Positions 1,041 to 24,367 of a stretch of DNA of 40,847 nucleotides are shown here, one piece after another. A program made the position numbers and the translations under genes. The stretch comes from a virus: UHGV virus genome UHGV-0390358, one strand, 5' to 3'. How positions within the stretch are numbered: position 1 is the first letter of the stretch; each line of letters starts with the position of its first letter. The notes beneath the pieces were generated by a model. It had not been told where the DNA came from. It made no database searches and worked only from the letters and a program-made list of their open reading frames with translations.

Positions 1041-1417
1041 TAATTAACTTCGAGGATAATAGAATCTTTAGACTTGAATCCCACTTTCCTCATGGCTGTA
1101 ATGACGTTTTGGATAACCCACGTTTTCCCAAACTCTCTTTCGTGTACAATGGCGCAAGGAAAATGAAGGGCGCTTTTGTTGCACTTTATGGTGAAAGTTG
1201 TACCTTCAGCAAAATCCAAAACAGTCTGCAGATGTGCAGATATAAACGATTTAAACACATCTTCAAGCTCAGCAAGAGTAATTGGCGGTTTGTTCCTCTC
1301 GTCGTTCAGGCGTTCATATGCTGCGTGAAATGAAAAGTGAATTCTTGCCGCATCTTCTTGCAAGATCTCGTTAATCTCATCCTCAAGATCAATGAGTTGT
1401 TGTTCTGTTATAGACAT
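1040..1417 (-). CDS. Hypothetical protein, 125 aa, acidic N-terminus; second gene of a two-gene operon
   Basis: ATG at 1417 overlaps the upstream gene stop (ATGTCTATAA), indicating translational coupling; ends at terminator. Confidence 0.5.
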   Translation of the reverse strand: MSITEQQLIDLEDEINEILQEDAARIHFSFHAAYERLNDERNKPPITLAELEDVFKSFISAHLQTVLDFAEGTTFTIKCNKSALHFPCAIVHEREFGKTWVIQNVITAMRKVGFKSKDSIILEVN

Positions 1418-1626
1418 AGATAACGGGAGGTCGCCTCACTTATTTTTTGATTTAATTCATCATCATTGGATGCACGTACAGTAGCAACATGCTTACTTTG
1501 GCGTAGGGTCCCAATTCTGATATCAAATTCTTCATTATCGAAAGAGTCAACGAAAACAGCTTTACCAGTTTCTGGATGGTAAAAAGAGGCATAGTTTTGG
1601 TTGAGTTGCATATCAAATTTAAACAT
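1408..1626 (-). CDS. Hypothetical protein, 72 aa; first gene of a two-gene operon
   Basis: Strong ribosome-binding site GGGAGGA 5 nt before ATG at 1626; operator-like palindrome upstream at 1744-1758. Confidence 0.55.
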   Translation of the reverse strand: MFKFDMQLNQNYASFYHPETGKAVFVDSFDNEEFDIRIGTLRQSKHVATVRASNDDELNQKISEATSRYLCL

Positions 1627-1824
1627 ATCATCCTCCCATACGGGAACAGACGTGACTTACATACGGTGTGATTTTGACTAGTTAACTTTCTGCAGCAAAA
1701 CCATCACGGTAACTACAAACTAAAATGTTACAAATCAACTTTCTTACCTTTGGGGTAATAGTACGCTATTCACCTGCAATCTGTACAGAATTATTTAAAG
1801 GCACATCCCTGTGCCGCCGTTCTG

Positions 1825-2511
1825 TCAGAAGACCCCTGCCTTGTCGTTGATGTATTCCGCGTGGGTCTGGATATCACGCAGGCATTTACTCACACCGACG
1901 ATGTAGCAGAACATGGTGGTCAGTTCCGCCGCCGCGCCCGATACGTCGTGCCCGTCTTCCTGTAACTGGTTCAGCAGATTCATCAGCAGTGAGTTCTCCG
2001 TCAGGCCGAGAACACCAGACGGCGAGTGAATCAAACTGCGGTAGCCGGGCTTCAGCGGGGCGCTGTAGGTGTTGTTCTCTATCTTCATTGCCTGCATCAC
2101 TGCTGACGCCGTGGCGTTGGCTACCTGGTCGGCAACCATCTTTATGCGTTCTTCCTGCGGGAGCGAGTTTTTAATGTAACTTCCGGTGCGGCGGATCTGA
2201 GGAAGAACCTCACCCGTAACCCATTTACGAAAGCGGTAGGGGATAGTGCCTGGTGTCACCGCATCGCGGCAGCGGAGGATCAGTGTGTAGAGGCCTGACT
2301 CGTTGATAATATTGGTTTCGCCTTGACGGCCTAAGTTAAATTTAGCCCTTTCATCATCATCAAGAGATTTTATTGACATAGTGGGGTTTGTCAGTTGAAG
2401 AGCTTTAATAACGTCTTTGGCAACAAACCAAGGATTTCCATCAATAACAATGGCTCGAATGGTTGCCTCTGATTCAAAATGAAAAACAGATGGGGTTACG
2501 TTAGCAGTCAT
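1825..2511 (-). CDS. Bro-N domain + KilA-C (phage antirepressor-type) domain protein
   Basis: N-terminal FHFESEATIRAIVIDGNPWFVAKDVIKAL matches the Bro-N signature; C-terminal domain is paralogous to the 3657..3914 protein; start taken at internal ATG 2511 (MTANV...) rather than the ORF-track start 2664. Confidence 0.65.
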   Translation of the reverse strand: MTANVTPSVFHFESEATIRAIVIDGNPWFVAKDVIKALQLTNPTMSIKSLDDDERAKFNLGRQGETNIINESGLYTLILRCRDAVTPGTIPYRFRKWVTGEVLPQIRRTGSYIKNSLPQEERIKMVADQVANATASAVMQAMKIENNTYSAPLKPGYRSLIHSPSGVLGLTENSLLMNLLNQLQEDGHDVSGAAAELTTMFCYIVGVSKCLRDIQTHAEYINDKAGVF

Positions 2512-2905
2512 AGTGATCACCTTTGTAGTTAGGTTAATCACCACTACCGACGCCAATCGGTTGGTGGTGAACTGTGCAGGGTTGGCGTAACCGGCTACAA
2601 AGGACCCGGCGCACCTTTCGGTGCCCCCACACAGCCCACCATAGAATAGGTGCGCTTTACACATAAAAAAACCGCTTATGCGGCATATGTGCCTCTGTAG
2701 TAACCCGGGACGCCAATCCCGGCACTGGATTTTGCCAGTGCCCGATTACTATGGCACAAGAGGAGTGCGATGTAAATTTACCGCAAAGGTAATGATAAGC
2801 GCGAAGAAATATTAAAATCAACCGTATTTGGTTGATTGCGTTTAACGCTTGATCACCTGAAAGCAAGATATTACCTTTAAGGTAATGTTATTGTGAGGAA
2901 AAGCA

Positions 2906-3634
2906 ATGGAAGTTTTCTGGATAGTTGTTGGTGTGGTTGCGGTGATTATTTACGTTATCAACCAGAACAAGACTAAGATCTCTGATCGTACGGTCGTTAA
3001 TCAGAACAAAACGATAAAGACCGAAGATGGGGAGGTAACGATTAGTCGTACACAGGTGATAGAACACACATCTACTCAGTTTCAAAAAACTGGAGGTAAC
3101 GCGCCTGATATTTCCGTACCTCCTGCTTATGATAGTGCGGTAATCCAGACATATTATAAACAGCAGGAGTTTGCAAAAGAGAGGCAACTGATTCAGCCAA
3201 AGCCGTTTACAGCTGAGCTTCCACCTGGAGTGTCAACGCGTCCGGCATATCATGGAAGATTCCCTGGTGATGACATATCGTCTCAGTCATCTAAAAAAGC
3301 ACCTCAGGCAGTATCAGAGCCAGCAAGAATACCTTCTGTATCGCCGCCAAAAGAAGAATCAGCTAACAGAGTTTCAAGTGGCCGCAAGCAGTGTTTGCGA
3401 TGCAGAATAAACCTTCCATATGACAAATTCCGGAAATCGTCAAAAAATCCAGATGGATTGACTAAGTGGTGTGCAAGGTGTCTCGATGGCCCAAAGAATA
3501 CACGCCATATGAAGTGGTGCCCAATTTGTAATGTCCGCAGAAAACGGACCAGCTTTTACCCTAATAATCAAAATGCGGACGGCTTAATGGCATGGTGCAA
3601 AACGTGCTGGGACGAGCACAAAGCGAAACGATAG
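2906..3634 (+). CDS. Membrane-anchored protein with two C-terminal CxxC...CxxC zinc-ribbon-like repeats, unknown function
   Basis: ATG at 2906 with GAGGA ribosome-binding site; N-terminal TM helix; repeats CLRC..DGLTKWCARC and CPIC..DGLMAWCKTC; operator palindrome 2871-2885 immediately upstream. Confidence 0.6.
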   Translation: MEVFWIVVGVVAVIIYVINQNKTKISDRTVVNQNKTIKTEDGEVTISRTQVIEHTSTQFQKTGGNAPDISVPPAYDSAVIQTYYKQQEFAKERQLIQPKPFTAELPPGVSTRPAYHGRFPGDDISSQSSKKAPQAVSEPARIPSVSPPKEESANRVSSGRKQCLRCRINLPYDKFRKSSKNPDGLTKWCARCLDGPKNTRHMKWCPICNVRRKRTSFYPNNQNADGLMAWCKTCWDEHKAKR

Positions 3635-3656
3635 GCCGCTCTTGCGGCCTTTAAAT

Positions 3657-3914
3657 TTACCGGGTTTGTTTTCGTAATTGTTCGGCACAATAGTCGAGAT
3701 GTGTTTGCAGATCCTGCATAGACATCTGTGAGCTGGTGACGTAGTTAATCAGTGCAGTCAGTTCGGCAAGTGGGCCATCGACATTAAATCCATCCTTATC
3801 GAGATCTCGGAGTAATTTCATCAAGTGCGATCCCTCCACCAGTGACCTGACGCCTCCCGGCGTGTGAATCCTTTCGGTAAATCCGTTTTCCAGTGGATAG
3901 TGATACTGCTGCAT
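3657..3914 (-). CDS. Stand-alone KilA-C-like small protein; candidate SOS-inducible antirepressor
   Basis: Paralogous to the C-terminus of the 1825..2511 protein (HTPGGVRSLVEGSHLMKLLRDL... versus HSPSGVLGLTENSLLMNLLNQL...); GGAG ribosome-binding site favours the ATG at 3914 over 3929; LexA box 6 bp upstream. Confidence 0.6.
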   Translation of the reverse strand: MQQYHYPLENGFTERIHTPGGVRSLVEGSHLMKLLRDLDKDGFNVDGPLAELTALINYVTSSQMSMQDLQTHLDYCAEQLRKQTR

Positions 3915-3934
3915 CTTAATCTTCTCCATGCAAT

Positions 3935-3954
3935 AACTGTATATTTATACAGTA
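3935..3954. promoter_or_regulatory. LexA (SOS) box
   Basis: AACTGTATATTTATACAGTA, CTGT-N8-ACAG with AT-rich spacer, 15 of 16 core positions matching the E. coli consensus; overlaps a TATAAA -10-like hexamer of the leftward promoter. Confidence 0.7.
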
Positions 3955-4110
3955 GCAAATAATTTGTTTGCTATCCAGCACGTTTTGCAAATTACCTGAA
4001 AGGTAATATCTATTCGTATTTACAGCCTTTCTATCCATATGTGGTTTTTCAGGTAATAGAATAACCAGATATGCGGCGCAACGGGTGCTGCGACTATCTG
4101 GAGATTTAAC

Positions 4111-7100
4111 ATGACGGTCTCAACCGAAGTTGACCACAACGAATACACCGGTAACGGCGTTACGACATCGTTTCCGTATACTTTTCGAATTTTCAGAAAA
4201 TCAGACCTGGTTGTTCAGGTGTCTGACCTGAACGGGAACGTAACAGAATTGGTTCTGGATACCGGTTATACGGTAACTGGGGCGGGCACTTATAGTGGCG
4301 GTTCTGTGGTTCTTCCGTCTCCGCTTGCTACTGGATGGCGAATTACGATAGATCGTGTGCTTGATGTAGTGCAGGAGACAGACCTTCGCAATCAGGGAAA
4401 ATTTTTCCCCGAAGTGCATGAAGATGCCTTTGACTACCTGACGATGCTGATCCAGCAATGTTTTGGGTGGTTCAGACGTGCATTGATGAAACCATCTTTG
4501 CTTGCAAAATATTACGATGCAAAGCAAAACAAAATTTCTAACCTTGCAGATCCATCATTTGAGCAGGACGCTGTAAATAATCGCTCAATGCGTAATTATG
4601 TCGATGCTGCAATCGCCGGGGTTGTTGGTGGTTTTGGTTGGTTTATTCAGTATGGTTCTGGGGCTGTGTACCGAACGTTCCAGGATAAAATGCGTGATGC
4701 TATTAGCCCCAAAGATTTTGGAGCTGTTGGTGATGGTATAAATGACGATTCCACTGCAATAAGCGCGTGCCTTGAAGCCTCATCTCCAGTTTATAAAATT
4801 GACGGATTAGGGCTTACTTTTAAAGTATCAACTCTTCCGGATGTCAGTCGATTTAAAAATGCTCGTTTTTTATTTGAGAGAATACCGGGTCAGCCTCTTT
4901 TTTATGCTTCTGAAGATTTTATCCAGGGAGAGTTATTTAAAATTACAGATACACCGTGGTACAACGCCTGGACGCAGGATAAAACGTTTGTATATGACAA
5001 TGTCATCTATGCGCCTTTTATGGCTGGAGACCGCCATGGTGTAAATAACCTCCATGTTGCATGGGTTCGCTCAGGAGATGACGGGAAGACCTGGACAACG
5101 CCGGAATGGCTTACAGATTTACATGAAAACTATCCCACAGTTAACTATCACTGCATGTGTATGGGGGTTGTCAGAAATCGCCTTTTTGCTGTAATTGAGA
5201 CGCGGACCGTGAGCGGAAATAAACTGCAGGTTGCAGAGTTGTGGGATCGCCCAATGAGTCGCAGCCTTCGCGTTTATGGTGGTATAACGAAAGCAGCAAA
5301 TCAGCAAGTCGCTTATATTCGCATTACTGATCACGGATTATTTGCTGGTGATTTTGTCAACTTCTCAAACTCTGGTGTTACAGGTGTTACCGGGAATATG
5401 ACGGTGACTACTGTTATTGATAAAAATACTTTTACAGTTACGACGCAAAATACCCAGGATGTGGATCAGAATAACGAGGGTAGATACTGGAGTTTTGGTA
5501 CATCATTTCACTCTTCACCATGGAGAAAAACCAGTCTTGGAACTATTCCTTCTTTTGTTGACGGAAGCACTCCTGTTACTGAGATTCACAGTTTTGCGAC
5601 GATTAGCGATAACAGTTTTGCTGTTGGCTACCATAATGGTGATATTGGTCCACGCGAGCTTGGGATACTCTATTTCTCTGATGCTTTCGGTTCTCCTGGT
5701 AGCTTTGTTCGCAGACGCATACCTGCAGAATATGAGGCGAATGCATCTGAGCCATGTGTAAAATATTATGATGGCATTCTGTATCTGACGACCAGGGGGA
5801 CATTAAGTACTCAACCCGGTAGTTCATTGCACAGAAGCTCTGATTTAGGTACATCATGGAATTCTCTTCGCTTCCCAAATAATGTTCATCACTCAAACCT
5901 TCCTTTTGCCAAAGTTGGCGATGAGCTGATTATTTTTGGCAGTGAGCGCGCATTTGGTGAGTGGGAAGGAGGAGAGCCTGATAACCGTTATGCAGGAAAT
6001 TATCCAAGAACATTTATGACCAGAGTTAACGTCAATGAGTGGAGTCTGGATAATGTAGAGTGGGTTAATGTTACTGATCAGATTTATCAGGGCGGAATAG
6101 TTAACTCTGCGGTTGGTGTTGGTTCAGTTTGTATCAAAGACAACTGGCTGTACTACATTTTCGGTGGGGAAGACTTTCTAAACCCATGGAGCATAGGGGA
6201 TAACAACAGAAAATATCCTTATGTTCACGATGGTCACCCGGCTGATTTGTATTGTTTCAGGGTGAAAATTAAACAGGAAGAATTTGTTTCAAGGGATTTT
6301 GTCTACGGAGCCACTCCTAACAGAACGCTTCCTACTTTTATGTCGACGTCAGGCGTGAGGACGGTTCCTGTACCCGTTGATTTCACAGATGATGTTGCCG
6401 TCCAGTCACTGACTGTCCATGCAGGTACATCAGGACAAGTTCGCGCGGAAGTCAAACTTGAGGGTAATTACGCCATTATTGCGAAGAAAGTACCGTCTGA
6501 TGATGTTACCGCTCAGAGATTAATCGTTAGCGGCGGTGAAACAACGTCTTCAGCAGATGGTGCAATGATAACGTTGCATGGTTCCGGAAGCAGTACTCCA
6601 CGTCGCGCGGTATATAACGCACTCGAACATCTTTTTGAGAACGGAGATGTTAAACCTTATCTTGATAATGTAAATGCTCTTGGTGGTCCGGGAAACAGGT
6701 TCTCGACAGTTTATCTTGGCTCCAATCCTGTGGTTACCAGTGACGGAACATTAAAGACAGAGCCGGTCTCTCCTGACGAAGCATTGCTGGATGCCTGGGG
6801 TGACGTCAGGTATATCGCTTATAAATGGCTGAACGCTGTCGCTATAAAGGGGGAAGAAGGGGCGAGGATACATCATGGTGTAATCGCGCAGCAACTTCGT
6901 GATGTTCTTATTTCTCACGGACTCATGGAAGAAGAAAGCACAACATGCCGCTATGCCTTTCTTTGCTATGACGATTATCCCGCAGTATATGATGACGTCA
7001 TTACTGGCCAAAGGGAAATGCCGCTGACTGATAATGACGGGAGCATCATTGTTGATGAGGATGATAATCCAGTGATGGTAATGGAAGACATCATTGAGCG

Positions 7101-7230
7101 CGTTGAAATAACGCCAGCAGGATCTAGATGGGGGGTCAGACCTGATCTCTTATTCTATATCGAGGCAGCATGGCAGCGCAGAGAAATGGATAAGATAAAA
7201 GAGCGGATTCAGTCTCTGGAAGAACGTTAA
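4111..7230 (+). CDS. Tailspike endosialidase (endo-N-acetylneuraminidase) with C-terminal intramolecular chaperone domain
   Basis: 1039 aa; conserved podovirus tailspike N-terminal head-binding region; sialidase Asp-boxes SGDDGKTW and SSDLGTSW; C-terminal HGVIAQQLRDV... autoproteolytic chaperone-type domain. Confidence 0.85.
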   Translation: MTVSTEVDHNEYTGNGVTTSFPYTFRIFRKSDLVVQVSDLNGNVTELVLDTGYTVTGAGTYSGGSVVLPSPLATGWRITIDRVLDVVQETDLRNQGKFFPEVHEDAFDYLTMLIQQCFGWFRRALMKPSLLAKYYDAKQNKISNLADPSFEQDAVNNRSMRNYVDAAIAGVVGGFGWFIQYGSGAVYRTFQDKMRDAISPKDFGAVGDGINDDSTAISACLEASSPVYKIDGLGLTFKVSTLPDVSRFKNARFLFERIPGQPLFYASEDFIQGELFKITDTPWYNAWTQDKTFVYDNVIYAPFMAGDRHGVNNLHVAWVRSGDDGKTWTTPEWLTDLHENYPTVNYHCMCMGVVRNRLFAVIETRTVSGNKLQVAELWDRPMSRSLRVYGGITKAANQQVAYIRITDHGLFAGDFVNFSNSGVTGVTGNMTVTTVIDKNTFTVTTQNTQDVDQNNEGRYWSFGTSFHSSPWRKTSLGTIPSFVDGSTPVTEIHSFATISDNSFAVGYHNGDIGPRELGILYFSDAFGSPGSFVRRRIPAEYEANASEPCVKYYDGILYLTTRGTLSTQPGSSLHRSSDLGTSWNSLRFPNNVHHSNLPFAKVGDELIIFGSERAFGEWEGGEPDNRYAGNYPRTFMTRVNVNEWSLDNVEWVNVTDQIYQGGIVNSAVGVGSVCIKDNWLYYIFGGEDFLNPWSIGDNNRKYPYVHDGHPADLYCFRVKIKQEEFVSRDFVYGATPNRTLPTFMSTSGVRTVPVPVDFTDDVAVQSLTVHAGTSGQVRAEVKLEGNYAIIAKKVPSDDVTAQRLIVSGGETTSSADGAMITLHGSGSSTPRRAVYNALEHLFENGDVKPYLDNVNALGGPGNRFSTVYLGSNPVVTSDGTLKTEPVSPDEALLDAWGDVRYIAYKWLNAVAIKGEEGARIHHGVIAQQLRDVLISHGLMEEESTTCRYAFLCYDDYPAVYDDVITGQREMPLTDNDGSIIVDEDDNPVMVMEDIIERVEITPAGSRWGVRPDLLFYIEAAWQRREMDKIKERIQSLEER

Positions 7231-7536
7231 AAAAAAGCCCGCAATATTTTGCGGGTATCAAAAACGGAGTTTGTGAAAAGTTATCTTTGAATTCTATCAT
7301 GAATCAGTACGTATTTTAAATACATGTTCAGGTTTATTACACCATAGCATTATTAAATACAAAATTAAGTCTATGGTTCCTGTACAACTGCCCCCACTCT
7401 GCTGGCTCGTTCTGTAAAATCATTAGTACTTTTATTGAGATATATGATATGGAACAATAATGATTCATATATGGTTTACTATGCGGGGTTAGTCATCAAT
7501 AATTGACTGGCTTATAGATAGTAAACAGGAGAAAGT

Positions 7537-7941
7537 ATGTCTGCTCAAGTAACAAGTGAGCAATTAAATCAGTTGCTTAGTTTTGGTTCTCTTGCTGCGG
7601 TTATTGCAGGTGTCCCTCCGGAGGTTGCTTTAGGGGCTTTGGCTGGGGCGGTAATTTTTGTTACCTCTGCAGTAGAGTACCCCATCCGTCGCCGGGTGCT
7701 CCTTTCGATGCTCAGCTTTCTTTGTGGCCTTCTCTTTTACAAACCAGCAGCATCAATTCTTATCGGCATAGCCAGCCTGATCCCTACCATCACGCAGGAC
7801 TCTTTTGAAAAAGGGATTGTTTTCTCTGCAGGCGCATTCGTGTCAGCAATTGTCGCTGTGCGTATTGGTATATGGCTCTATCACCGTTCCGATAATCCAC
7901 GCGAGTTAATTCCGGGGAGAAAAGACGATGGTAACGCATGA
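7537..7941 (+). CDS. Putative holin-like membrane protein
   Basis: AGGAG ribosome-binding site; 134 aa with several predicted TM segments; first gene of a cassette followed by endolysin and spanins. Confidence 0.45.
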   Translation: MSAQVTSEQLNQLLSFGSLAAVIAGVPPEVALGALAGAVIFVTSAVEYPIRRRVLLSMLSFLCGLLFYKPAASILIGIASLIPTITQDSFEKGIVFSAGAFVSAIVAVRIGIWLYHRSDNPRELIPGRKDDGNA

Positions 7942-8236
7942 GTTTTTTTTGCTTATCACCAATGCAGTTATTTGCACTGGCATAGCAATTCGCGTTGTCA
8001 CATTCCGGCGTAACGGCTCTCAACATCGAAGGTGGGGAGGATGGCTTGCTTATTTCCTGATTGTTGCTGCGGCCAGTATTCCTGTTCGAGTCGCCTATGC
8101 AATCTGGTTACGTACGCCAATGGCTGTGGATTTATCTGAGGTCATTATCAACGCTGTCATGCTGGCTGCGGTTATTAAAACGCGCGGTAACGTCGTTCAA
8201 ATTTTTAAAGTATCGAGGTCTAAACATGGAGATTAA
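7928..8236 (+). CDS. Putative holin/antiholin-like small membrane protein
   Basis: 102 aa hydrophobic protein; start overlaps previous gene; immediately upstream of endolysin. Confidence 0.4.
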
Positions 8237-8855
8237 ACAATTCCAGCGAGCTGCTGGTACCAGCGAGGCACTGGCCGCACGCTGGTTCTCGCATATAACT
8301 TCTGCGATGAAAGAGTTTGGTATCAGCAAAGCAGAAGATCAGGCAATGTTTATTGCTCAAGTCGGGCATGAGTCTGGGGGCTTCACCAGGTTGCAGGAGA
8401 ATTTCAACTACAGTGTCAGCGGACTGGCTAACTTCGTTCGGGCTGGGCGTCTCACTCAGGGGCAGGCTAATGCACTGGGGCGCCGTGCTGGTGAACCACC
8501 ATTGCCACTTGAGCGCCAGCGCGCGATCGCAAATCTGGTATACAGCAAACGCATGGGGAACAATGCCCCTGGTGATGGCTGGAATTACCGAGGGCGCGGA
8601 CTTATCCAGATTACCGGTTTGAATAACTATCGTGATTGCGGAAACGGTCTGAAGGTTGACCTGCTGGAGAGCCCTGAACTGCTGGCGCAGGACGAATATG
8701 CGGCTCGTAGCGCGGCGTGGTTCTTCGCCAGCAAAGGATGCATGAAGTATACCGGCGATATTGCACGTGTAACTCTGATTATCAATGGTGGCAGAAACGG
8801 TATCGACGACCGGCGTGCGCGGTACATCACAGCAAGTAAGGTACTGGCGGTATGA
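8226..8855 (+). CDS. Endolysin, glycoside hydrolase family 19 (chitinase-like) type
   Basis: ATG at 8226 (ribosome-binding site GAGG); motifs [12 protein letters not shown] and [12 protein letters not shown] typical of GH19 phage endolysins. Confidence 0.8.
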
Positions 8856-9349
8856 TCTGGGCATTTGTAAAAGCATACCGTAAACAGTTACTTATCGTGG
8901 CGATGCTTGCTGTTCTGGTCATATCAGGAGTTGTTGCCTGGAATGTGCACGGCATCCGTCAGTACGATGCCGGGTATGCGCAGGCGAAGGAAGATCAGAA
9001 ACAGGCTGATGATAAGTTAAGGTCACAGCGTGAGCAGGAGAAAACACAAATTGAACGTGAAGCACAATCCCGTATCGATGCGGCGCGTGCTGATGCTGAG
9101 TATGCTAATTCCGCTGCTGACAGCATGCGCGCCGAGCTTGACAAAACCAGGCGGCTCGCCGAACACTATACCGGATCTTTCCCCCCTGGCACGCCAGCCA
9201 GCAAGGTCATCGGTGTGCTCGCCGACATGCTTGAAGAAAGCAACCGAGTTTACAACGCAACAGCAGCTGAGGCTGAAAAGTATCGTATCGCAGGGGAATT
9301 CTGCGAGCAGCAATACGATTCACTGAAGAAGCAAAAATCGTGGCACTGA
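8852..9349 (+). CDS. Rz-like inner-membrane spanin
   Basis: N-terminal TM helix followed by charged coiled-coil region; directly after endolysin. Confidence 0.65.
9078..9326 (+). CDS. Rz1-like outer-membrane lipoprotein spanin, embedded in the +1 frame of the Rz-like gene
   Basis: Embedded ORF with lipobox LLTAC, Pro/Ser-rich; start codon choice uncertain. Confidence 0.4.
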   Translation: MRRVLMLSMLIPLLTACAPSLTKPGGSPNTIPDLSPLARQPARSSVCSPTCLKKATEFTTQQQLRLKSIVSQGNSASSNTIH

Positions 9350-12438: not shown

Positions 12439-13461
12439 TTACTCGAATTCTGGACGCATATCGTTAAGCGTCATCATGAATTTTTGGTGATATTCATCAC
12501 CGAGCTTTTCAGCCATGGTGTTAATCTCATTTTCAGCGCTCTTGAACATCGTTTTTGCATCTTCAGCAGATGGATCCAGGCTATTAAGTATCGCGATGAT
12601 ATATTCTCGAGCTTCTTCTCGTTCTGAATCTGAAATTGGCGACAGGTGTTGACGCTCATCGTCAACTACGGAATATTCACCAGTGATAACAGCTGCGTTA
12701 TCTTGGCTAAGTCCAGCTTCAGCGCGCTCATCCATAACAACAGCCTTCTGCATTTCAATAGAAACAGGAAGATATTTGAATAGTCGGCGAATTACTGTTT
12801 TTTTAGCCATCTCATCGAAGTGATCAACCCATGGGCCACTGCTACCGGCTTTGCTCAGTGCACGAACTTTCTCAATGTCTGCCCGGCTCATAACTTCAAA
12901 TTGGACTCCGCCATCTTTCAGTCGTGCAACGGCGTAAACGTGCGTTAATTCTCCGCGGTCACCTGTTTCGCAAGGTAAATGCTCGAGCGTTTCTTCCAGG
13001 CCGTATGAGTAGCTGAATTTGTCGTTTGTATGTACGGTACGAGCCGAGATACTCAGGATCTGCCCAGAGCGGCGGGCAAGGTCAATCATTCCGCGATAGC
13101 CGATAATCAGCTGTGCTTCTGTAGATACGGTTTCCCATCTTCCATTTACTTTCTGGCGTTTGTCGAACGGTATCAGGTAAGCGTGTCCAAGAGCTCCGCC
13201 TGGTTCAAGACCCAATTGGGCACATTGCATAATTGCCCCCAGGAAGCTGGCTTGGTCGCATGATGCAAGTTTTGGAACCTTTCGGATCTCTGTGGTTGCT
13301 ATGCGCGCCAGACGGTCTGCTGTCATGTGCTTTGGAAGTGCCAAAGCCATCTGAGCTTTAATTTTTGGGTCTGCCAGAAGTCCGGCCAGAGTTGTTGGTT
13401 TCTCATTATGATGTGCAACTTGGTTACCGGCAGCCGCTGCCTTAAGTGCATTGATAGACAT
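12439..13461 (-). CDS. recT: RecT-family single-strand annealing recombinase
   Basis: Strong similarity by eye to Rac RecT (ADRLARIATTEIRKVP...GYRGMIDLARRSGQI...HVYAVARLKDGG.QFEVM...KTVIRRLFKYLPVSIE); AAGGAG ribosome-binding site. Confidence 0.85.
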   Translation of the reverse strand: MSINALKAAAAGNQVAHHNEKPTTLAGLLADPKIKAQMALALPKHMTADRLARIATTEIRKVPKLASCDQASFLGAIMQCAQLGLEPGGALGHAYLIPFDKRQKVNGRWETVSTEAQLIIGYRGMIDLARRSGQILSISARTVHTNDKFSYSYGLEETLEHLPCETGDRGELTHVYAVARLKDGGVQFEVMSRADIEKVRALSKAGSSGPWVDHFDEMAKKTVIRRLFKYLPVSIEMQKAVVMDERAEAGLSQDNAAVITGEYSVVDDERQHLSPISDSEREEAREYIIAILNSLDPSAEDAKTMFKSAENEINTMAEKLGDEYHQKFMMTLNDMRPEFE

Positions 13462-13470
13462 TTTTTCTCC

Positions 13471-14370
13471 TTACTTCATTCTGAAGACGCGTTGTGTCGT
13501 TGTTGTTTTGAATTTTTCGAATAACTCAGGGTGTACTGACTGGAATAGCTTCTGGTCGAATCTGTTGCTGATCTGAGATTTCCATGTGCAGAGCGGCTTT
13601 CCGTCCAGGGTCAGGACTGAGTGCTCTTGCATGTACATCTTCAGCTTCTCTTCTGATATAGCTATTTCTTCTTCCAGTGATTTTCTGCGTGACTTCATGT
13701 CTCGTAGATCGTTGAATAGTGCGAGTGCCTTTCCGTCAGCCTCGATACTTGTCCCGGCATCTTTCTCAAACATCAGCGATACATCGCTTACGCTGGTAGC
13801 TTCCGGCGGGTTAAGATTTTTCACTCGGTCCCAGAAAGCGATTTCTTTTTCTAAGATCGCCTGGATAGTTTCTTCATCACGCTCAACCCGATAGATTCGG
13901 AAGTCGTCGCCACCGATAAGCACACCGAAAACGCATACCTGTTTGTTTGTAACCATCAACCCGTGCATGGCCTGGGCCGTGTAATGCACAGGAATTGCAT
14001 CTGTCTGGATTTCTCCCCATTCTTTGGCTTTGAACGGACTAACTGTTTTGATCTCAATGTTCTCGCCTGACGCTGCTTCTGCATCGATCTCAGCTGCAAT
14101 AAAATCGTAATCACGGTGGATATAGCGGTTTCCGCGATGAACGATTTCCATCCCTGTTTCCTCAGAAAGCAGGTCTATTACGTATGGCTCCATACGCTGG
14201 CCACGCGTGAAAACTTTCTGCTTGCTTGGGTCTACTGGTTTGACACGTGGCTGGACCTTATCCAGATAAACCTCAAGCGGGGTGCGCCATGGGCTAATTC
14301 CAAGAATCCCTGCAACATCGCTTCCTCCGATGTATTTTGTTCTATCCATGATTCCAGCGTTCTGCATCAT
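13471..14370 (-). CDS. YqaJ-like recombination exonuclease (partner of RecT)
   Basis: N-terminal KYIGGSDVAGILG and IEIKT motifs; ATGA overlap with upstream gene stop. Confidence 0.7.
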   Translation of the reverse strand: MMQNAGIMDRTKYIGGSDVAGILGISPWRTPLEVYLDKVQPRVKPVDPSKQKVFTRGQRMEPYVIDLLSEETGMEIVHRGNRYIHRDYDFIAAEIDAEAASGENIEIKTVSPFKAKEWGEIQTDAIPVHYTAQAMHGLMVTNKQVCVFGVLIGGDDFRIYRVERDEETIQAILEKEIAFWDRVKNLNPPEATSVSDVSLMFEKDAGTSIEADGKALALFNDLRDMKSRRKSLEEEIAISEEKLKMYMQEHSVLTLDGKPLCTWKSQISNRFDQKLFQSVHPELFEKFKTTTTQRVFRMK

Positions 14371-14974: not shown

Positions 14975-15559
14975 TTATTGTTTGCTTTTTTCGTTCTGGT
15001 TGATGACAAATTCAATGTAACTTTCGATCTTTGCTTTCTCGGTTTCGGGTAACAATGCGTAGCGTGAGCGGTCATAGTTGATAGTCGCAGGGTCGTGCGG
15101 GTGAATCAGTAGTTCATATCCGTGACGCCCGAATGCGGATGCAACATTCTCCAGGGTGGAAATGGAAACGCTGACCTCATTGTTTAACAGGCGGCTGATT
15201 GTCACCTGGGCGACGCCGGATGCGCGGTGAAGTTTTCCCTGTGTTGAAAGGTCGCGGCTTTCGCTCATCCAGCGTTCCAGGTTGTGAGCCGCCAGCTGAC
15301 CTATATCGCTCGGGCCGACAGGCTGAAAACCCTCCTGAGAAAGCGAACGATCAATATCAAGCCAGTTACGGGGTTTATTGGCGGCAGCTTCAATTTTTCG
15401 TGCAACCTGGTCGCCGATAACCTTCTTGCCAAGAGCCCAGCGGTTTACCAGATTTGCCTGAGTTCCAAGTTTTTCTGCCATCCGCGTCTGAACACCATTG
15501 AATTCACGGTCGATCAAGTCGTTGAGATTTTGCCTGCGGACGTCCTGGATACTTTTCAT
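14975..15559 (-). CDS. Prophage repressor with two tandem XRE-type HTH domains and no peptidase S24 autocleavage domain
   Basis: 194 aa; HTH-like segments QTRMAEKLGTQANLVNRWALGK and VAQVTISRLLNNEVSVSISTLENVASAFG; divergent from Cro-like gene across an operator-containing region. Confidence 0.7.
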   Translation of the reverse strand: MKSIQDVRRQNLNDLIDREFNGVQTRMAEKLGTQANLVNRWALGKKVIGDQVARKIEAAANKPRNWLDIDRSLSQEGFQPVGPSDIGQLAAHNLERWMSESRDLSTQGKLHRASGVAQVTISRLLNNEVSVSISTLENVASAFGRHGYELLIHPHDPATINYDRSRYALLPETEKAKIESYIEFVINQNEKSKQ

Positions 15560-18396: not shown

Positions 18397-18957
18397 ATGG
18401 AAAGTAATATCAAAGGGTTAGTTTCCGCCGGGCATGAGATGGCTTCGGAACTGAAAGCAGAATGTGGTGCCGTTGATATGCGCAGTGTGGCAAAGCTGAT
18501 CAGCGATTTGGCAACGCAACTGGAAGTGCAACTGGTGCGTGCTAATGCGCTGGCCGAAGACCACCAGAGAGCGACTGAGTCAATTAAGCAGGCTGATTCG
18601 GCTGTTAAGTTGGCGCACGAGAAGTTTTCGGTGCTGGCGGCGGAGAATGAGCTGGCTCGTAAGGCAGTTCAGGCATTCTGCGATGTTGTTGGCGACAACA
18701 CCGAGGTTATCGCTGAGGTGGTTGGGCGAGATGGCGTTCTGGTTATTTTGGAGGCCATGAAGGCAACAGGAAATATGCCAGCCACCGATGCTTTCCTGGC
18801 TGAAGTCCGGGCGCAGGGGGTGGATATGGCTCGTAACGCGATGATTGATTTTGTTGATGGTGAAGTTGGGCCAAACAAGAACGTTCCGGGGCTGATTAGA
18901 GGCGCAGAGATATGCGTAAGTATTGCTGAACAGCTTCGCAAAGGAGGCAACCAGTGA
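18397..18957 (+). CDS. Hypothetical protein
   Basis: 186 aa ORF with start overlapped to neighbours; unassigned. Confidence 0.45.
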   Translation: MESNIKGLVSAGHEMASELKAECGAVDMRSVAKLISDLATQLEVQLVRANALAEDHQRATESIKQADSAVKLAHEKFSVLAAENELARKAVQAFCDVVGDNTEVIAEVVGRDGVLVILEAMKATGNMPATDAFLAEVRAQGVDMARNAMIDFVDGEVGPNKNVPGLIRGAEICVSIAEQLRKGGNQ

Positions 18958-19490
18958 GCGAAATTAATTACCAGGCACTGCGTGAGGCGGCGGAACGTGC
19001 AATTCCGGCAATGGAACGCCTGTTAATGTTGCCAGTTGATGATGATCTGATAAGTGAACAGGAACTTAAAGATTACGGTGTGGATATTGATGCGCTCAAC
19101 GCCTTCAAATTTCTGGCCGGACCAGAAACCGTGCTGGCGCTTCTGGATGAACGGGAAAGAAACCAGCAATACATCAAACGCCGCGACCAGGAGAACGAGG
19201 AGATTGCGCTAACGGTAGGGAAGCTGCGCGTTGAGCTTGAAGCAGCAAAATCAAAACTCAACGAGCAGCGCGAGTATTACGAGGGAGTTATCTCTGATGG
19301 GTGCAAGCGTATTGCTGAACTGGAAGCGCGGGAAGTTCAATTACCGACTCGCTACGACCTTCGATATGGACACCCGATAAATGCAGATGAGCGACAAGTC
19401 ATGATACCTAAAGAAAATGGCAGTTGGCTTTACCTGATTGACCTAGAACACGCATTACGCGTCGCTGACATTCGCATCAAAGGAGAGTGA
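18954..19490 (+). CDS. Ead/Ea22-like protein
   Basis: N-terminal MSEINYQALREAAERA... resembles lambdoid Ead/Ea22-like N-termini; coiled-coil middle. Confidence 0.45.
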   Translation: MSEINYQALREAAERAIPAMERLLMLPVDDDLISEQELKDYGVDIDALNAFKFLAGPETVLALLDERERNQQYIKRRDQENEEIALTVGKLRVELEAAKSKLNEQREYYEGVISDGCKRIAELEAREVQLPTRYDLRYGHPINADERQVMIPKENGSWLYLIDLEHALRVADIRIKGE

Positions 19491-19491
19491 T

Positions 19492-20670
19492 ATGACCACT
19501 TTTACCGACAAAGAACTGATTAAAGAAATCAAAGAGCGCATCAGCAGCCTGGACGTGCGAGACAATATTGAGCGCCGTGCTTATGAAATTGCTCTGGCAT
19601 CGCTGGAAGCAGAACCGGTGGCGTGGGAATGCGGTGAAAACATAATTTTGTTTAACCCTGACACAGTTGAAGCATACGCAAAACGTGCGGAGATAACACC
19701 TAAGCCACTATTCTCCGCGCCGCCAGCGCCGATGGCTGCGCCGGAGAAATGCCCGGCAGAAATTCGAGAGCTGATGTCGTCGCATTCTGACGATCTCTTC
19801 AACGATGAAGACGCTCAGGAGATTTGGAACACCTGCCGCGCCGCTATGCTTCAGTCCGGAAACTTTCGGGAAAACAAGAATTCGTCAACCAATAATTTTC
19901 GAGAAATCGCGGAAACGTCAACCAACTATCCGGCAATTCCTAGTGAGGTGTTGTCCGCAATCCTGAAGGTTGCCAGGATTCGTGCCGATTTCGATGATTT
20001 TGACGGTGACAGGCGAGGTATCGGTGATTGTCTGGATGAGGCTGAGCAAGAGCTTATCGTTACCATTAACAAATATGCCAGTCAGTTGGCAGTAGTACCT
20101 GTTGGGCTTGATGAACGTGCAGCTTTCAATGCCTGGAATAACGACGAGAACCTCCCCATAGCTGGTGTTGGCGCAAAAAACGCTGCCTGGTTAGCCTGGC
20201 AAGCCCGCGCTGAGTTGGGTCGCTCGTTAGCCGTAAACTCTCCGGTAATTCCGGATGGTTTATCCACGGTATGCGCTGAGGCTTATCAGGTTGTAGGAGT
20301 TATGGCAGATGCGCTTGGTGTATTCGGTGATGCAGCAGTACAGAAAGTTCTGGATAACCTGTCACAGCAAAAACTTGTTCACAGAGATGTGCTGCCGTTC
20401 TCGCTTCCGGTAACTCCGGATGGTTGGGTTATAGTGCCGAAGAAACTAACCGCTGAGAACGGCGCTAAGGGTGTGCTATCCGGTGAATTTTCAGAAACTA
20501 CGTTTATAAGCTGCCCGGAATGCTTTGGCGATGATGATTGCGATACCTGTGACGGGAGCGGACGAATTGAAATTAAAGTACCAGTCACGTGGACGACCAT
20601 AAAATCCATCTGGGATAAAGGTATTGCGCATTTTGCAGCAAAACCGCCGCAGGAGGTTAACCGTGGCTAA
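19492..20670 (+). CDS. Hypothetical protein with C-terminal DnaJ-type CxxCxGxG zinc-finger motif
   Basis: 392 aa; C-terminal CPECFGDDDCDTCDGSG. Confidence 0.45.
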   Translation: MTTFTDKELIKEIKERISSLDVRDNIERRAYEIALASLEAEPVAWECGENIILFNPDTVEAYAKRAEITPKPLFSAPPAPMAAPEKCPAEIRELMSSHSDDLFNDEDAQEIWNTCRAAMLQSGNFRENKNSSTNNFREIAETSTNYPAIPSEVLSAILKVARIRADFDDFDGDRRGIGDCLDEAEQELIVTINKYASQLAVVPVGLDERAAFNAWNNDENLPIAGVGAKNAAWLAWQARAELGRSLAVNSPVIPDGLSTVCAEAYQVVGVMADALGVFGDAAVQKVLDNLSQQKLVHRDVLPFSLPVTPDGWVIVPKKLTAENGAKGVLSGEFSETTFISCPECFGDDDCDTCDGSGRIEIKVPVTWTTIKSIWDKGIAHFAAKPPQEVNRG

Positions 20671-20944
20671 CCTGCAACTTGCCGTCAAAGGTGAATACTT
20701 CGATGCCATGATTCGCGGGGAGAAAACGGAAGAGTATCGCCTGTGTAATGACTACTGGAAAAAGCGCCTCGTTAACCGTAAGCATGACCGCCTGATTATC
20801 ACAAAGGGATATCCGAAGCGCGACGATTCCAGCCGCAGAATAGACGTCCCGTATGAAGGGTATGAAATCAAGACAATCACACATCCGCACTTCGGCGATA
20901 AACCGGTAAAGGTGTTCGCGATAAAGGTAAATATTGATGGCTAA
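20663..20944 (+). CDS. Small protein, possibly ASCH/PUA-like fold
   Basis: GTG start overlapping previous stop; ...YFDAMIRGEKTEEYRL...; weak assignment. Confidence 0.35.
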   Translation: MANLQLAVKGEYFDAMIRGEKTEEYRLCNDYWKKRLVNRKHDRLIITKGYPKRDDSSRRIDVPYEGYEIKTITHPHFGDKPVKVFAIKVNIDG

Positions 20945-21989: not shown

Positions 21990-23455
21990 CAGATACATCG
22001 TTATCTCCTGAAGAGCAGTTGATCGAGGATATTGCAGGGTTCACTCACGATCCGCTTGGCTATGCCCTCTATGCGTTCCCGTGGGGGGAAGAGGGGACTG
22101 AACTGGCACATGCCACCGGCCCACGTCAATGGCAGGCTGATGCGTTCCGAGAGATACGTGATCACCTGCAGAATCCAGAGACGCGCTATCAGCCGCTTAT
22201 GCTGGCACGCGCTTCTGGTCACGGTATTGGTAAATCCGCATTTATCTCAATGCTGATCAACTGGGGCATGTCCACTTGCGAGGATTGTAAGGTCGTGGTG
22301 ACCGCCAACACCGACAACCAGCTACGAACGAAGACCTGGCCGGAAATTATCAAGTGGTCGAACCTTGCTATCACGAAAGACTGGTTTACCTGTACCGCTA
22401 CCGCGATGTACAGCAATGACCCTGGGCACGACAAGCGGTGGCGAGCTGACGCAATCCCTTGGTCTGAGCACAACACTGAGGCATTCGCCGGACTACACAA
22501 CGAGCGCAAACGCATCATCGTGGTATTCGATGAAGCGTCGAACATTGCGGATCTGGTGTGGGAAGTTGCCGAGGGTGCGCTAACGGACGAAGACACTGAG
22601 ATTATCTGGGTGGCGTTCGGAAACCCGACGCGTAATACCGGACGTTTCCGCGAATGTTTCCGCAAATATAAACACCGCTGGAAAACTGCGCAGATTGACA
22701 GCCGGACGGTGGAAGGCACCAACAAACAGCAGTTGCAGAAATGGGTTGATGACTACGGGGAAGACAGCGACTTCGTTAAAATCCGTGTGCGTGGAATATT
22801 CCCTGATGCATCTGAATTGCAGTTTATCCCTACCGGTCTTACTGACGAGGCAATGAAACGGGTGGTAACCGCTGCGCAGGTTGCACATGCTCCGGTGATA
22901 ATTGGCGTTGACCCGGCATACTCCGGCGTTGATGACGCTGTGATATACCTGCGGCAGGGGCTACACAGTAAGGTGCTGTGGACTGGCAACAAGACCACTG
23001 ACGATCTGATAATGGCGAAGCGTATCGCTGACTTTGAAGACCAGTACCAGGCTGACGCAGTGTTCATCGACTTCGGTTACGGAACTGGTCTGAAGTCAAT
23101 CGGTGACGGCTGGGGTCGTACATGGCAACTTGTTCCGTTTGGTGGCGCGTCTACTGACCCGCAGATGCTCAACAAGCGTGGGGAGATGTTCAACTCATGC
23201 AAGACATGGCTGAGGCTGGGCGGCATGCTTGATGACCAGGAAACAGCGGACGACCTGTCGGCGGCAGAGTACAAAGTTCGAGTGGACGGTAAAATCGTTA
23301 TCGAACCGAAGGAAGATATCAAGGAGCGGCTTGGGCGTTCTCCTGGTAAAGGCGATGCGCTACTGCTGACGTTTGCGTTCCCGGTAGCCAAGAAAACTAA
23401 TGACCCACGGCAGCAGCAGGGCAGGGCTATAACAGACTATGACCCATTTGAATGA
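21986..23455 (+). CDS. Terminase large subunit
   Basis: GTG start overlapping TerS stop; Walker A-like ARASGHGIGKSAF and Walker B-like IIVVFDEAS; 489 aa. Confidence 0.85.
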   Translation: MTDTSLSPEEQLIEDIAGFTHDPLGYALYAFPWGEEGTELAHATGPRQWQADAFREIRDHLQNPETRYQPLMLARASGHGIGKSAFISMLINWGMSTCEDCKVVVTANTDNQLRTKTWPEIIKWSNLAITKDWFTCTATAMYSNDPGHDKRWRADAIPWSEHNTEAFAGLHNERKRIIVVFDEASNIADLVWEVAEGALTDEDTEIIWVAFGNPTRNTGRFRECFRKYKHRWKTAQIDSRTVEGTNKQQLQKWVDDYGEDSDFVKIRVRGIFPDASELQFIPTGLTDEAMKRVVTAAQVAHAPVIIGVDPAYSGVDDAVIYLRQGLHSKVLWTGNKTTDDLIMAKRIADFEDQYQADAVFIDFGYGTGLKSIGDGWGRTWQLVPFGGASTDPQMLNKRGEMFNSCKTWLRLGGMLDDQETADDLSAAEYKVRVDGKIVIEPKEDIKERLGRSPGKGDALLLTFAFPVAKKTNDPRQQQGRAITDYDPFE

Positions 23456-23458
23456 TTT

Positions 23459-24283: not shown

Positions 24284-24342
24284 ACTAATTACCTTAAAGT
24301 TTTTCATGATTATACCTTTAAGGTAATTTGTGGTCATCAGGC

Positions 24343-24367
24343 AAAAAAAATGCCCGGCGAACCGGGC
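24343..24367 (-). terminator. Rho-independent terminator downstream of the tRNA
   Basis: Minus strand GCCCGG-ttcg-CCGGGC followed by a run of 8 T. Confidence 0.45.

What the first reader, a model, noticed from the sequence alone, without database searches (positions are those of the whole stretch)
4111..7230. Endosialidase tailspike implies a K1 (polysialic acid) capsule host
Two sialidase Asp-boxes and a C-terminal self-cleaving chaperone-type domain, behind a conserved podovirus head-binding N-terminus, are the hallmarks of K1-specific endosialidases. A capsule depolymerase on a temperate element carrying an SOS-linked switch is of applied interest.
Basis: partly seen in the sequence, partly recalled or inferred. 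Interest (0 to 1): 0.5.

Follow-up and report, generated by a model that had tools for sequence, protein, structure and literature searches.

The report
Known K1 capsule-degrading phage tailspike
This gene encodes the tail spike of a temperate E. coli phage, an enzyme that cuts the polysialic-acid (K1) capsule so the phage can reach the cell; the reading is correct, but almost the same protein is already published and annotated, so it is ordinary.

Summary
Window 4111-7230(+) is one intact 1039-aa ORF. It matches all four endosialidase Pfam domains (beta-propeller E=6e-233) and Peptidase_S74. It has exactly two Asp-boxes and keeps the endoNF active-site residues and the Ser-Lys self-cleavage pair.

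The K1-host interpretation also holds:
- Residues 234-1025 differ at 5 positions from the CUS-3 endosialidase, whose GenBank record cites a direct assay of endosialidase activity.
- The gene is 99.8% identical to ORF7 of the published temperate phage vB_EcoP_ZX5, which was isolated on an O87:H52:K1 strain.
- The near-identical prophage sits in a genome that carries the kps/neu K1 cluster.
- The chimeric gene is complete in 72 of 5426 complete E. coli genomes, apparently all K1.

Two corrections:
- The N-terminus is the epsilon15/Uetakevirus-type virion-attachment module, not the P22 "head-binding" domain that CUS-3 uses.
- The SOS link is a LexA box in front of a small antirepressor-like gene, not a self-cleaving repressor.

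The gene is a mosaic. A Uetakevirus anchor is joined at the domain boundary to an endosialidase cassette 99.5% identical to that of CUS-3, and both prophages often share one chromosome.

Novelty: already known. Interest is low.

The parts
4100..4103 (+). Ribosome-binding site GGAG, 7 nt upstream of the ATG
   Evidence: Read directly from the sequence.
4111..7230 (+). Tailspike gene: 1039 aa, 115.7 kDa precursor, stop codon TAA at 7228-7230
   Evidence: ORF list. phrog_1171 'tail spike protein' matches end to end with E=0. The ZX5 ORF7 homologue has 3 amino-acid differences. Molecular weight.
4111..4722 (+). N-terminal virion-attachment module (aa 1-204), epsilon15/Uetakevirus type: predicted beta-sandwich plus coiled-coil neck
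   Evidence: PDB Dpo31 (28lx) residues 1-215 match with E=1.3e-35. In Dpo31, domain D1 is a beta-sandwich that contacts the virion base. The DNA is 97.8% identical to Uetakevirus phiv142-3, whose distal part is unrelated. tblastn distribution. No similarity to the CUS-3/P22-type N-terminus.
4707..4808 (+). Left mosaic junction (aa ~199-233). This divergent stretch lies between the Uetakevirus-like and CUS-3-like DNA and holds the conserved G-DG--DD motif
   Evidence: BLAST end points and per-50-nt mismatch counts. In the phage collection the segment occurs only in ZX5 and two partial Phi05 records.
4723..4923 (+). Endosialidase N-terminal extension (aa 205-271)
   Evidence: PF12218, E=5.7e-31.
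4924..6273 (+). Six-bladed beta-propeller catalytic domain (aa 272-721), with the lectin-like beta-barrel inserted at aa 383-465 (nt 5257-5505)
   Evidence: PF12217 E=6.1e-233 and PF12195 E=3.2e-46. 65.4% identity to the endoNF crystal-structure sequence over 665 residues.
5071..5094 (+). Asp-box 1, SGDDGKTW (aa 321-328)
   Evidence: Regex scan.
5836..5859 (+). Asp-box 2, SSDLGTSW (aa 576-583)
   Evidence: Regex scan.
5035..5949 (+). Span holding the active-site residues H309 (5035-5037), R515 (5653-5655), E547 (5749-5751), R562 (5794-5796) and R613 (5947-5949). They correspond to endoNF H350, R549, E581, R596 and R647
   Evidence: Mapped through the alignment to 1v0e; all five are identical. 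The residue list comes from PMC12632334.
6274..6738 (+). Triple-beta-helix stalk domain (aa 722-876), which is the C-terminus of the mature spike
   Evidence: PF12219, E=8.5e-78. The alignment to endoNF runs to its last mature residue, T910, which corresponds to T876.
6739..7227 (+). C-terminal intramolecular chaperone / self-cleaving domain (aa 877-1039, 18.7 kDa). The scissile bond is T876|S877, the nucleophile is S877 (6739-6741) and the base is K882 (6754-6756)
   Evidence: PF13884 at 41.4 bits. 3gw6 matches with E=2e-69. The dyad positions are from PMC3828593. Molecular weight.
7185..7201 (+). Right mosaic junction. Near-identity to CUS-3 siaK1 ends about 30 nt before the stop codon, and the last 14 residues differ
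7238..7255 (.). G+C-rich hairpin 8 nt after the stop codon. It is flanked by an A-run upstream, so the scan scores it as a terminator only for the minus strand
   Evidence: Its function was not tested.
7537..9349 (+). Context: the lysis cassette downstream on the same strand (two holin-family proteins, a GH19 endolysin, and a DUF2514 protein)
   Evidence: Pfam hits and the ZX5 and RefSeq annotations.
3937..3952 (.). Context: LexA box CTGTATATTTATACAG in the divergent intergenic region. It lies 158 nt upstream of the tailspike ATG and 22 nt upstream of the start of the minus-strand 85-aa ORF
   Evidence: Pattern search: 3 matches against 0.52 expected, and this one is near-consensus.
3657..3914 (-). 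Context: 85-aa protein homologous to the C-terminal domain of the Ant antirepressor, a candidate SOS-induced mini-antirepressor
   Evidence: phrog_450 E=1.7e-47. The same family matches aa 197-277 of the Bro-N antirepressor encoded at 1825-2664.

Best explanation
The gene encodes the homotrimeric endosialidase (endo-N-acetylneuraminidase, GH58) tailspike of an epsilon15-like (Uetakevirus) temperate podovirus that infects E. coli K1.

Inferred mechanism, by homology to endoNF:
- The 116-kDa precursor trimerises with the help of its C-terminal chaperone domain.
- The Ser877-Lys882 pair then cleaves the T876|S877 bond and releases an 18.7-kDa fragment.
- The 97-kDa mature spike attaches to the tail through its epsilon15-type N-terminal beta-sandwich and coiled-coil module.
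[quoted passage not shown] The virion thereby tunnels through the K1 capsule to the outer membrane.

The gene is a chimera. A Uetakevirus anchor module is joined at the domain boundary to the same receptor-binding cassette that the P22-like prophage CUS-3 carries.

Shown here: the domain architecture, the conserved residues, the mosaic boundaries, the genome context and the K1 genotype of lysogens.

Inferred: enzymatic activity, self-cleavage and capsule dependence of infection.
For: Domains are, and PDB homology to endoNF (E=0, 65.4% identity over 665 aa) is. Catalytic and dyad residues are conserved.

Only 5 substitutions separate aa 234-1025 from CUS-3 SiaK1, and the DNA is 99.46% identical over 2393 nt. 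The CUS-3 record carries 'endo-alpha-sialidase activity [Evidence IDA] PMID 16689790', and a review lists CUS-3 among the K1-specific endosialidases.

The gene is 99.8% identical to ORF7 of phage ZX5, with 3 amino-acid differences. ZX5 plaques on an O87:H52:K1 host, lysogenises at guaA and is induced by mitomycin C. Its paper describes the same three-part architecture.

The window is 98-99.5% identical to ZX5 over most of its length and 99.85-99.99% identical to a prophage of E. coli Es_ST80. That chromosome carries kpsMT-neuDBACES-kpsSCUDEF.

neuS occurs in 329 of 5426 genomes, and the chimeric junction is complete in 72. Ten accessions are shared between the two 60-row lists. About 10.9 are expected if all carriers are K1, and P=1.2e-9 under independence. 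Every carrier whose record title states a capsule type is K1, for example O7:K1 CE10, O1:K1:H7, O2:K1:H7 and O2:K1:H5.
Against: No experiment was done on this exact protein.

One residue next to the cleavage site differs from endoNF (N912 becomes D878), although CUS-3 has the same residue.

The ZX5 paper reports no test on acapsular mutants, so capsule dependence for the Uetakevirus version rests on homology and on the host serotype.

The co-occurrence statistic uses truncated 60-row lists, not full lists.
Confidence: 0.93

Rival explanations
1. The spike is an endosialidase whose effective specificity is broader than or different from plain K1. It might act on the K92 capsule (alternating alpha-2,8/2,9 linkages) or be selective for the O-acetylation state of polysialic acid. 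In that case 'K1 host' would be only part of the host range.
For: Fourteen genomes carry a neuS only 80-90% identical to the K1 allele, and these may be K92-type (the K92 assignment is my inference). This phage lacks neuO, the capsule O-acetyltransferase that CUS-3 carries next to its spike gene. The two phages may therefore relate differently to capsule acetylation.
Against: The catalytic and binding domains differ from CUS-3 SiaK1 at only 5 residues. All serotyped carriers are K1. The ZX5 host is K1.
Confidence: 0.1
2. The gene is a decaying remnant in a cryptic prophage and no longer yields a functional spike.
For: In the Es_ST80 copy of the prophage a neighbouring virion gene is annotated as frameshifted. 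Many prophages are defective.
Against: The ORF is intact and all functional residues are conserved. The window lacks that frameshift: it has one extra G at 30228 and an open 202-aa ORF. ZX5 forms plaques and reaches 1e9 PFU/mL on induction with a spike that differs by 3 residues. The window is in the excised, circularly permuted order, with the lysis genes followed by the attachment junction and then the integrase.
Confidence: 0.04
3. The central domain is a general exo-sialidase (GH33, BNR type) or another glycosidase rather than an endosialidase.
For: The Asp-boxes are shared with exosialidases, and there is a weak BNR_2 hit (E=0.0026).
Against: The BNR_2 score of 17.6 bits is below its 31.4-bit cut-off, whereas the endosialidase-specific propeller, barrel and stalk domains score 773, 156 and 260 bits. 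The best solved-structure matches are all endo-N-acetylneuraminidases.
Confidence: 0.01

Closest known systems
ORF7 tail protein of Escherichia phage vB_EcoP_ZX5 (MW722083; Li et al., Pathogens 2022, PMC9782041)
   Same: Same gene: 99.8% nucleotide identity and 3 amino-acid differences (V227G, C350S, S368R). The genome backbone is the same Uetakevirus backbone, the gene sits in the same position ahead of the lysis cassette, and the paper describes the same three-part architecture. The ZX5 host is K1.
   Different: The window genome carries several replaced modules relative to ZX5: about 1051-3657, 12442-14367, 18554-20937 and 23385-24345. None of them touches the spike.
SiaK1 endosialidase tailspike of the P22-like prophage CUS-3 (CP000711; Stummeyer 2006, King 2007)
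   Same: The endosialidase and chaperone cassette is 99.46% identical in DNA, with 5 amino-acid differences across aa 234-1025. Both are temperate K1 phages.
   Different: The N-terminal anchor is unrelated: CUS-3 has the P22 gp9-type domain and this protein has the epsilon15 type. The last 14 residues differ. CUS-3 has neuO downstream and this phage has none. The genera differ (Lederbergvirus against Uetakevirus), and so do the integration sites.
EndoNF of lytic phage K1F (PDB 1v0e, 3gvl, 3gw6)
   Same: Same domain order and, by homology, the same fold, with 65.4% identity over the mature catalytic part. The active-site residues, both Asp-boxes and the Ser-Lys cleavage pair are the same.
   Different: K1F is a lytic T7-like phage. 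This protein has a 7-residue insertion (aa 482-488) relative to endoNF, and N912 is replaced by D878.
Tailspikes of epsilon15, phiV10, SPN1S and phiv142-3 (Uetakevirus)
   Same: The N-terminal attachment module matches at 64-72% protein identity, or 97.8% DNA identity for phiv142-3. The gene position in the genome is the same.
   Different: Their distal parts are unrelated to the endosialidase cassette. Some carry record annotations such as 'right-handed parallel beta-helix repeat-containing protein' or 'eliminase'.

Membership tests
Bacteriophage endosialidase (endo-N-acetylneuraminidase, GH58) | Endosialidase-type six-bladed beta-propeller catalytic domain | tested here: met
   PF12217 covers aa 272-721 and the full profile (1-367/367), E=6.1e-233, 772.7 bits against a cut-off of 24.
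Bacteriophage endosialidase (endo-N-acetylneuraminidase, GH58) | Beta-barrel domain inserted in the propeller, plus the triple-beta-helix stalk | tested here: met
   PF12195 covers aa 383-465 (E=3.2e-46) and PF12219 covers aa 722-876 (E=8.5e-78).
Bacteriophage endosialidase (endo-N-acetylneuraminidase, GH58) | Active-site residues equivalent to endoNF H350, R549, E581, R596 and R647 | tested here: met
   H309, R515, E547, R562 and R613 are all identical in the alignment to 1v0e. The residue list is from PMC12632334.
Bacteriophage endosialidase (endo-N-acetylneuraminidase, GH58) | Two Asp-box motifs | tested here: met
   SGDDGKTW at aa 321 and SSDLGTSW at aa 576. The regex finds exactly two.
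Bacteriophage endosialidase (endo-N-acetylneuraminidase, GH58) | Endo-cleavage of alpha-2,8-polysialic acid | not testable with these tools
   Supported indirectly only. CUS-3 SiaK1 differs by 5 residues in this part and its GenBank record cites a direct assay.
Peptidase S74 / C-terminal intramolecular chaperone domain | Domain homology | tested here: met
   PF13884 covers aa 877-937 at 41.4 bits against a cut-off of 22. 3gw6 matches with E=2e-69 over aa 839-1038.
Peptidase S74 / C-terminal intramolecular chaperone domain | Ser-Lys catalytic pair at the cleavage site (endoNF S911 and K916, with cleavage after T910) | tested here: met
   T876|S877 and K882 are aligned column for column. N912 is replaced by D878.
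Peptidase S74 / C-terminal intramolecular chaperone domain | Self-cleavage and release of the domain after trimerisation | not testable with these tools
   Predicted products are 97.0 and 18.7 kDa.
P22 gp9-type 'head-binding' N-terminal domain (as in CUS-3, HK620 and Sf6) | Sequence homology of the first ~110-130 residues to the P22/CUS-3 N-terminus | tested here: not met
   BLASTP against CUS-3 aa 1-174 finds similarity only in aa 193-232, which is the endosialidase N-terminal extension. Nothing matches in aa 1-190. No Pfam Head_binding hit was found.
Epsilon15 / T7-gp17-like N-terminal tail-attachment module | Homology to the N-termini of epsilon15-group tailspikes and to a structurally characterised podovirus spike anchor | tested here: met
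   tblastn gives 64-72% identity to Salmonella phage VB_ST_E15, SPN1S and O157 typing phage 10. Dpo31 domains D1-D2 match with E=1.3e-35.
Epsilon15 / T7-gp17-like N-terminal tail-attachment module | Pfam Phage_T7_tail (PF03906) membership | tested here: inconclusive
   15.9 bits against a cut-off of 25.2, covering only aa 135-161. The ZX5 authors report a T7-like tail-fibre N-terminal domain.
Uetakevirus (epsilon15-like temperate podoviruses) | Collinear genome with a classified member, with integrase, repressor and antirepressor | tested here: met
   The window is 98-99.5% identical to ZX5 over most of its length, and the ZX5 record is classified in Uetakevirus. The integrase, the HTH repressor and the Bro-N antirepressor are identified.

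The most novel reading that the evidence does not exclude
The endosialidase cassette may be kept almost identical (99.5% over 2.4 kb) in two unrelated prophage genera by ongoing recombination or gene conversion inside K1 chromosomes that carry both. The two genera are the P22-like CUS-3 and this epsilon15-like phage. At least 10 complete genomes hold both spike types, including the one with this exact prophage. If true, the receptor-binding module evolves in concert across co-resident prophages, with crossover points fixed at the anchor/enzyme boundary and just before the stop codon.
Probability: 0.35. Interest if true: 0.35.

Novelty: already known. Interest (0 to 1): 0.15.

Why it matters
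The result confirms that the host of this phage can be read from its spike gene: it is a K1-encapsulated extraintestinal pathogenic E. coli. It also shows that the spike is a ready-made, well-understood capsule depolymerase.

The applied value is limited. Equivalent enzymes (endoNF, endoNE, CUS-3 SiaK1) are already characterised, and a temperate phage is a poor therapeutic.

The modest added value is descriptive. About 22% of neuS-positive complete genomes (72 of 329) carry this epsilon15-type endosialidase prophage and about 48% (157 of 329) carry the CUS-3 type. The two often occur together, and they share one receptor-binding cassette on different anchors.

Tried and rejected
1. CUS-3 itself. 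My first guess was that the window is CUS-3. I rejected this because only nt 4809-7201 match CUS-3 and the rest of the genome is Uetakevirus.

2. P22-type head-binding domain. There is no similarity in aa 1-190.

3. neuO or a heptanucleotide contingency repeat next to the spike, as in CUS-3. blastn, tblastx and a search for AAGACTC repeats all found nothing, and TRF reported no such array.

4. Self-cleaving CI/LexA-like repressor as the SOS link. The 194-aa repressor has HTH domains only and no Peptidase_S24 domain. The LexA box with a small Ant-like ORF is the better candidate.

5. Donor of the junction segment 4707-4808 and of the 7202-7536 spacer. A sensitive blastn against 50,697 phage records found only ZX5 and two partial Phi05 records, so no third parent was identified.

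6. Terminal redundancy of the window. There is none. The ends abut as in a circular permutation of ZX5.

7. Structure prediction, fold search and the large protein-database searches were not run. Crystal structures at 65% identity and near-identical published sequences already answer the question.
Full report
**Observation.** Window 4111-7230(+) is a single intact ORF of 1039 aa. Its ATG is preceded by GGAG 7 nt upstream. The short ORFs that overlap it on either strand are by-products of the six-frame listing and have no support.
- A regex for the Asp-box finds exactly two: SGDDGKTW at aa 321 and SSDLGTSW at aa 576.
- Pfam places Peptidase_S74, 'chaperone of endosialidase', at aa 877-937.
- The first ~200 residues are a widely conserved podovirus spike N-terminus.

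**What it is.** Pfam assigns the centre of the protein to the four endosialidase-specific families:
- N-terminal extension, aa 205-271.
- Beta-propeller, aa 272-721, E=6e-233.
- Beta-barrel insert, aa 383-465.
- Stalk, aa 722-876.

The generic sialidase family BNR_2 stays below its threshold.

The best solved structures are the endoNF crystal forms. They match with E=0 over aa 205-876, with one 7-residue insertion and 65.4% identity. The residues reported as catalytic or substrate-binding in endoNF are H350, R549, E581, R596 and R647 (PMC12632334). All are conserved here, as H309, R515, E547, R562 and R613.

The C-terminal 163 residues align with the endoNF intramolecular chaperone structure 3gw6 with E=2e-69. 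The cleavage serine and its general-base lysine in endoNF are S911 and K916 (PMC3828593). They appear here as S877 and K882, preceded by T876. The neighbouring N912 is D878 here, as it is in CUS-3. Predicted products are a 97.0-kDa mature spike and an 18.7-kDa released domain.

**Whose gene it is.** The window is a complete, circularly permuted genome of an epsilon15-like temperate podovirus of the genus Uetakevirus.
- It is collinear with Escherichia phage vB_EcoP_ZX5 at 98-99.5% identity, apart from four replaced modules.
- It is 99.85-99.99% identical to a prophage of E. coli Es_ST80_L1_NDM_10_2017. Over the ~25.3 kb compared, the differences are one SNP, one 1-nt indel and one 13-nt indel.
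- In that chromosome the prophage ends right after the lysis genes, next to yfgI. The attachment junction therefore maps to about window 9453, just upstream of the integrase gene. This fits the guaA 3'-end integration reported for ZX5.

The spike gene is 99.8% identical to ZX5 ORF7, with 3 amino-acid differences.

**Mosaic structure.** The gene joins two sources.
- DNA 3657-4706 covers the upstream small gene, the intergenic region and codons 1-198. It is 97.8% identical to Uetakevirus phiv142-3, whose spike continues into an unrelated distal domain.
- DNA 4809-7201 covers codons 234-1030. It is 99.46% identical to siaK1 of the P22-like prophage CUS-3, with 13 mismatches, no gaps and 5 amino-acid changes.
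- The ~100 nt between the two, and the 335 nt that include the last codons and the spacer before the holin gene, match neither parent. In the phage collection they occur only in ZX5 and two partial Phi05 records.

The left junction falls at the start of the endosialidase N-terminal extension, around a G-DG--DD motif shared by all three proteins.

The N-terminal module is not the P22 'head-binding' domain. BLASTP against the CUS-3 N-terminus finds nothing in aa 1-190. It is instead homologous to the anchor of epsilon15-group spikes at 64-72% identity, and to domains D1-D2 of the Carin-1 tailspike Dpo31 with E=1.3e-35. In Dpo31, D1 is a beta-sandwich that contacts the base of the virion (PMC13317679). 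Pfam's T7 tail-fibre N-terminal family is only a sub-threshold hit.

**Host.** The K1 inference is supported independently of the domain homology.
- The CUS-3 enzyme, which is nearly identical in the relevant part, is recorded with direct-assay evidence for endo-alpha-sialidase activity. A review lists it among K1-specific endosialidases.
- ZX5 was isolated on E. coli YO1, typed O87:H52:K1.
- The Es_ST80 chromosome carries the complete group 2 K1 cluster: kpsMT, neuD-like acetyltransferase, neuB, neuA, neuC, neuE, the alpha-2,8-polysialyltransferase, and kpsSCUDEF.
- neuS occurs in 329 of 5426 complete genomes, or 6.1%. A 401-nt probe across the Uetakevirus/endosialidase junction is complete in 72 genomes. 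Ten accessions are shared between the two 60-row listings. About 10.9 would be expected if every carrier were K1, and P=1.2e-9 if carriage were independent of neuS.
- Every carrier whose record title states a capsule type is K1.

**Temperate lifestyle and the SOS link (context).** The genome encodes a tyrosine integrase, a 194-aa repressor with HTH domains and no S24 peptidase domain, and a Bro-N antirepressor. ZX5 lysogens release 1e7 PFU/mL spontaneously and 1e9 PFU/mL after mitomycin C.

A near-consensus LexA box, CTGTATATTTATACAG, lies at 3937-3952 in the divergent region between the spike gene and a minus-strand 85-aa ORF. That ORF belongs to the same PHROG as the C-terminal domain of the antirepressor. 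The SOS connection is therefore most likely LexA-controlled antirepression. This is an inference and was not tested.

**Comparison and novelty.** Endosialidase cassettes are already known on several attachment solutions: a T7-type anchor (K1F), a P22-type anchor (CUS-3) and a separate adapter protein (K1E, K1-5). This is the textbook case of modular exchange among tailspikes. The epsilon15-type anchor is one further solution, and it is already in the literature. The ZX5 paper describes ORF7 as a T7-like N-terminal domain, an endosialidase and an intramolecular chaperone. RefSeq annotates the gene as 'endosialidase catalytic beta-propeller domain-containing protein' in the carrier genomes listed. 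The finding is therefore correct but already known.

**Small additions from this work.**
- Exact mosaic boundaries for the gene.
- The absence of neuO.
- The CUS-3-type junction is complete in 157 genomes and the Uetakevirus type in 72.
- At least ten genomes carry both types, Es_ST80 among them. This offers an obvious route for keeping the cassette 99.5% identical between two unrelated prophages.

**Verdict.** Novelty is 'already known' and interest is 0.15.

Noticed in passing
window 3915-4110, with the LexA box at 3937-3952; minus-strand ORF 3657-3914: A near-consensus LexA operator sits directly upstream of an 85-aa protein homologous to the C-terminal domain of the phage's own Bro-N antirepressor (phrog_450). 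The repressor (14975-15559, minus strand) lacks an S24 autocleavage domain, so SOS induction is probably by LexA-controlled antirepression. The same divergent region lies just upstream of the spike and lysis genes. It also holds inverted repeats (for example ATTACCTGAAAGGTAAT, starting at about 3982) that could be further operators.
   Followed up: partly
window 2906-3634 (+): A 242-aa ORF has an N-terminal hydrophobic segment and a Cys-rich C-terminal half, with weak hits to Stc1, endonuclease VII and Lar-like zinc-ribbon families (phrog_6762, function unknown). It lies on the opposite strand to its neighbours and is followed by a terminator-like hairpin at 3633-3650. It is absent from ZX5 but present in the Es_ST80 prophage. 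It looks like a moron or accessory gene.
   Followed up: partly
window 1051-3657, 12442-14367, 18554-20937 and 23385-24345: Four modules have little or no nucleotide similarity to ZX5, although the rest of the genome is 98-99.5% identical. The second replaces the recombination genes (RecT/RecE region in ZX5). The fourth holds a 292-aa minus-strand ORF (23459-24337) between the terminase and portal genes.
   Followed up: no
window 7231-7536: A 306-nt non-coding spacer lies between the spike stop codon and the first holin gene. In the phage collection it is found only in ZX5 and two partial Phi05 records. It starts with a G+C-rich hairpin (7238-7255) that is flanked by an A-run upstream and not by a T-run downstream, so the scan scores it as a terminator only for the minus strand.
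   Followed up: partly
NZ_CP031215.1 at 5,041,410 (Uetakevirus-type spike) and 5,214,193 (CUS-3-type spike); also IHE3034, APEC O18, EC69, ST95-32 and others: At least ten complete K1 genomes carry both endosialidase prophage types. In Es_ST80 the two spike genes lie about 170 kb apart. Lysogeny by one capsule-targeting phage therefore does not exclude the other.
   Followed up: partly
window 30228, compared with L004 (Es_ST80 prophage): The window has one extra G relative to the RefSeq chromosome, where the corresponding virion gene is annotated as frameshifted. In the window the ORF (30133-30741) is open. Either the chromosome record has a homopolymer error or the prophage copy there is defective.
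   Followed up: partly
L005/L006 (NZ_CP031215.1 4.40-4.50 Mb): In the lysogen, the K1 kps/neu cluster adjoins a large island that carries fec, hlyCABD, cnf1 and S/F1C fimbrial genes. This is a typical virulence background for extraintestinal pathogenic E. coli.
   Followed up: no
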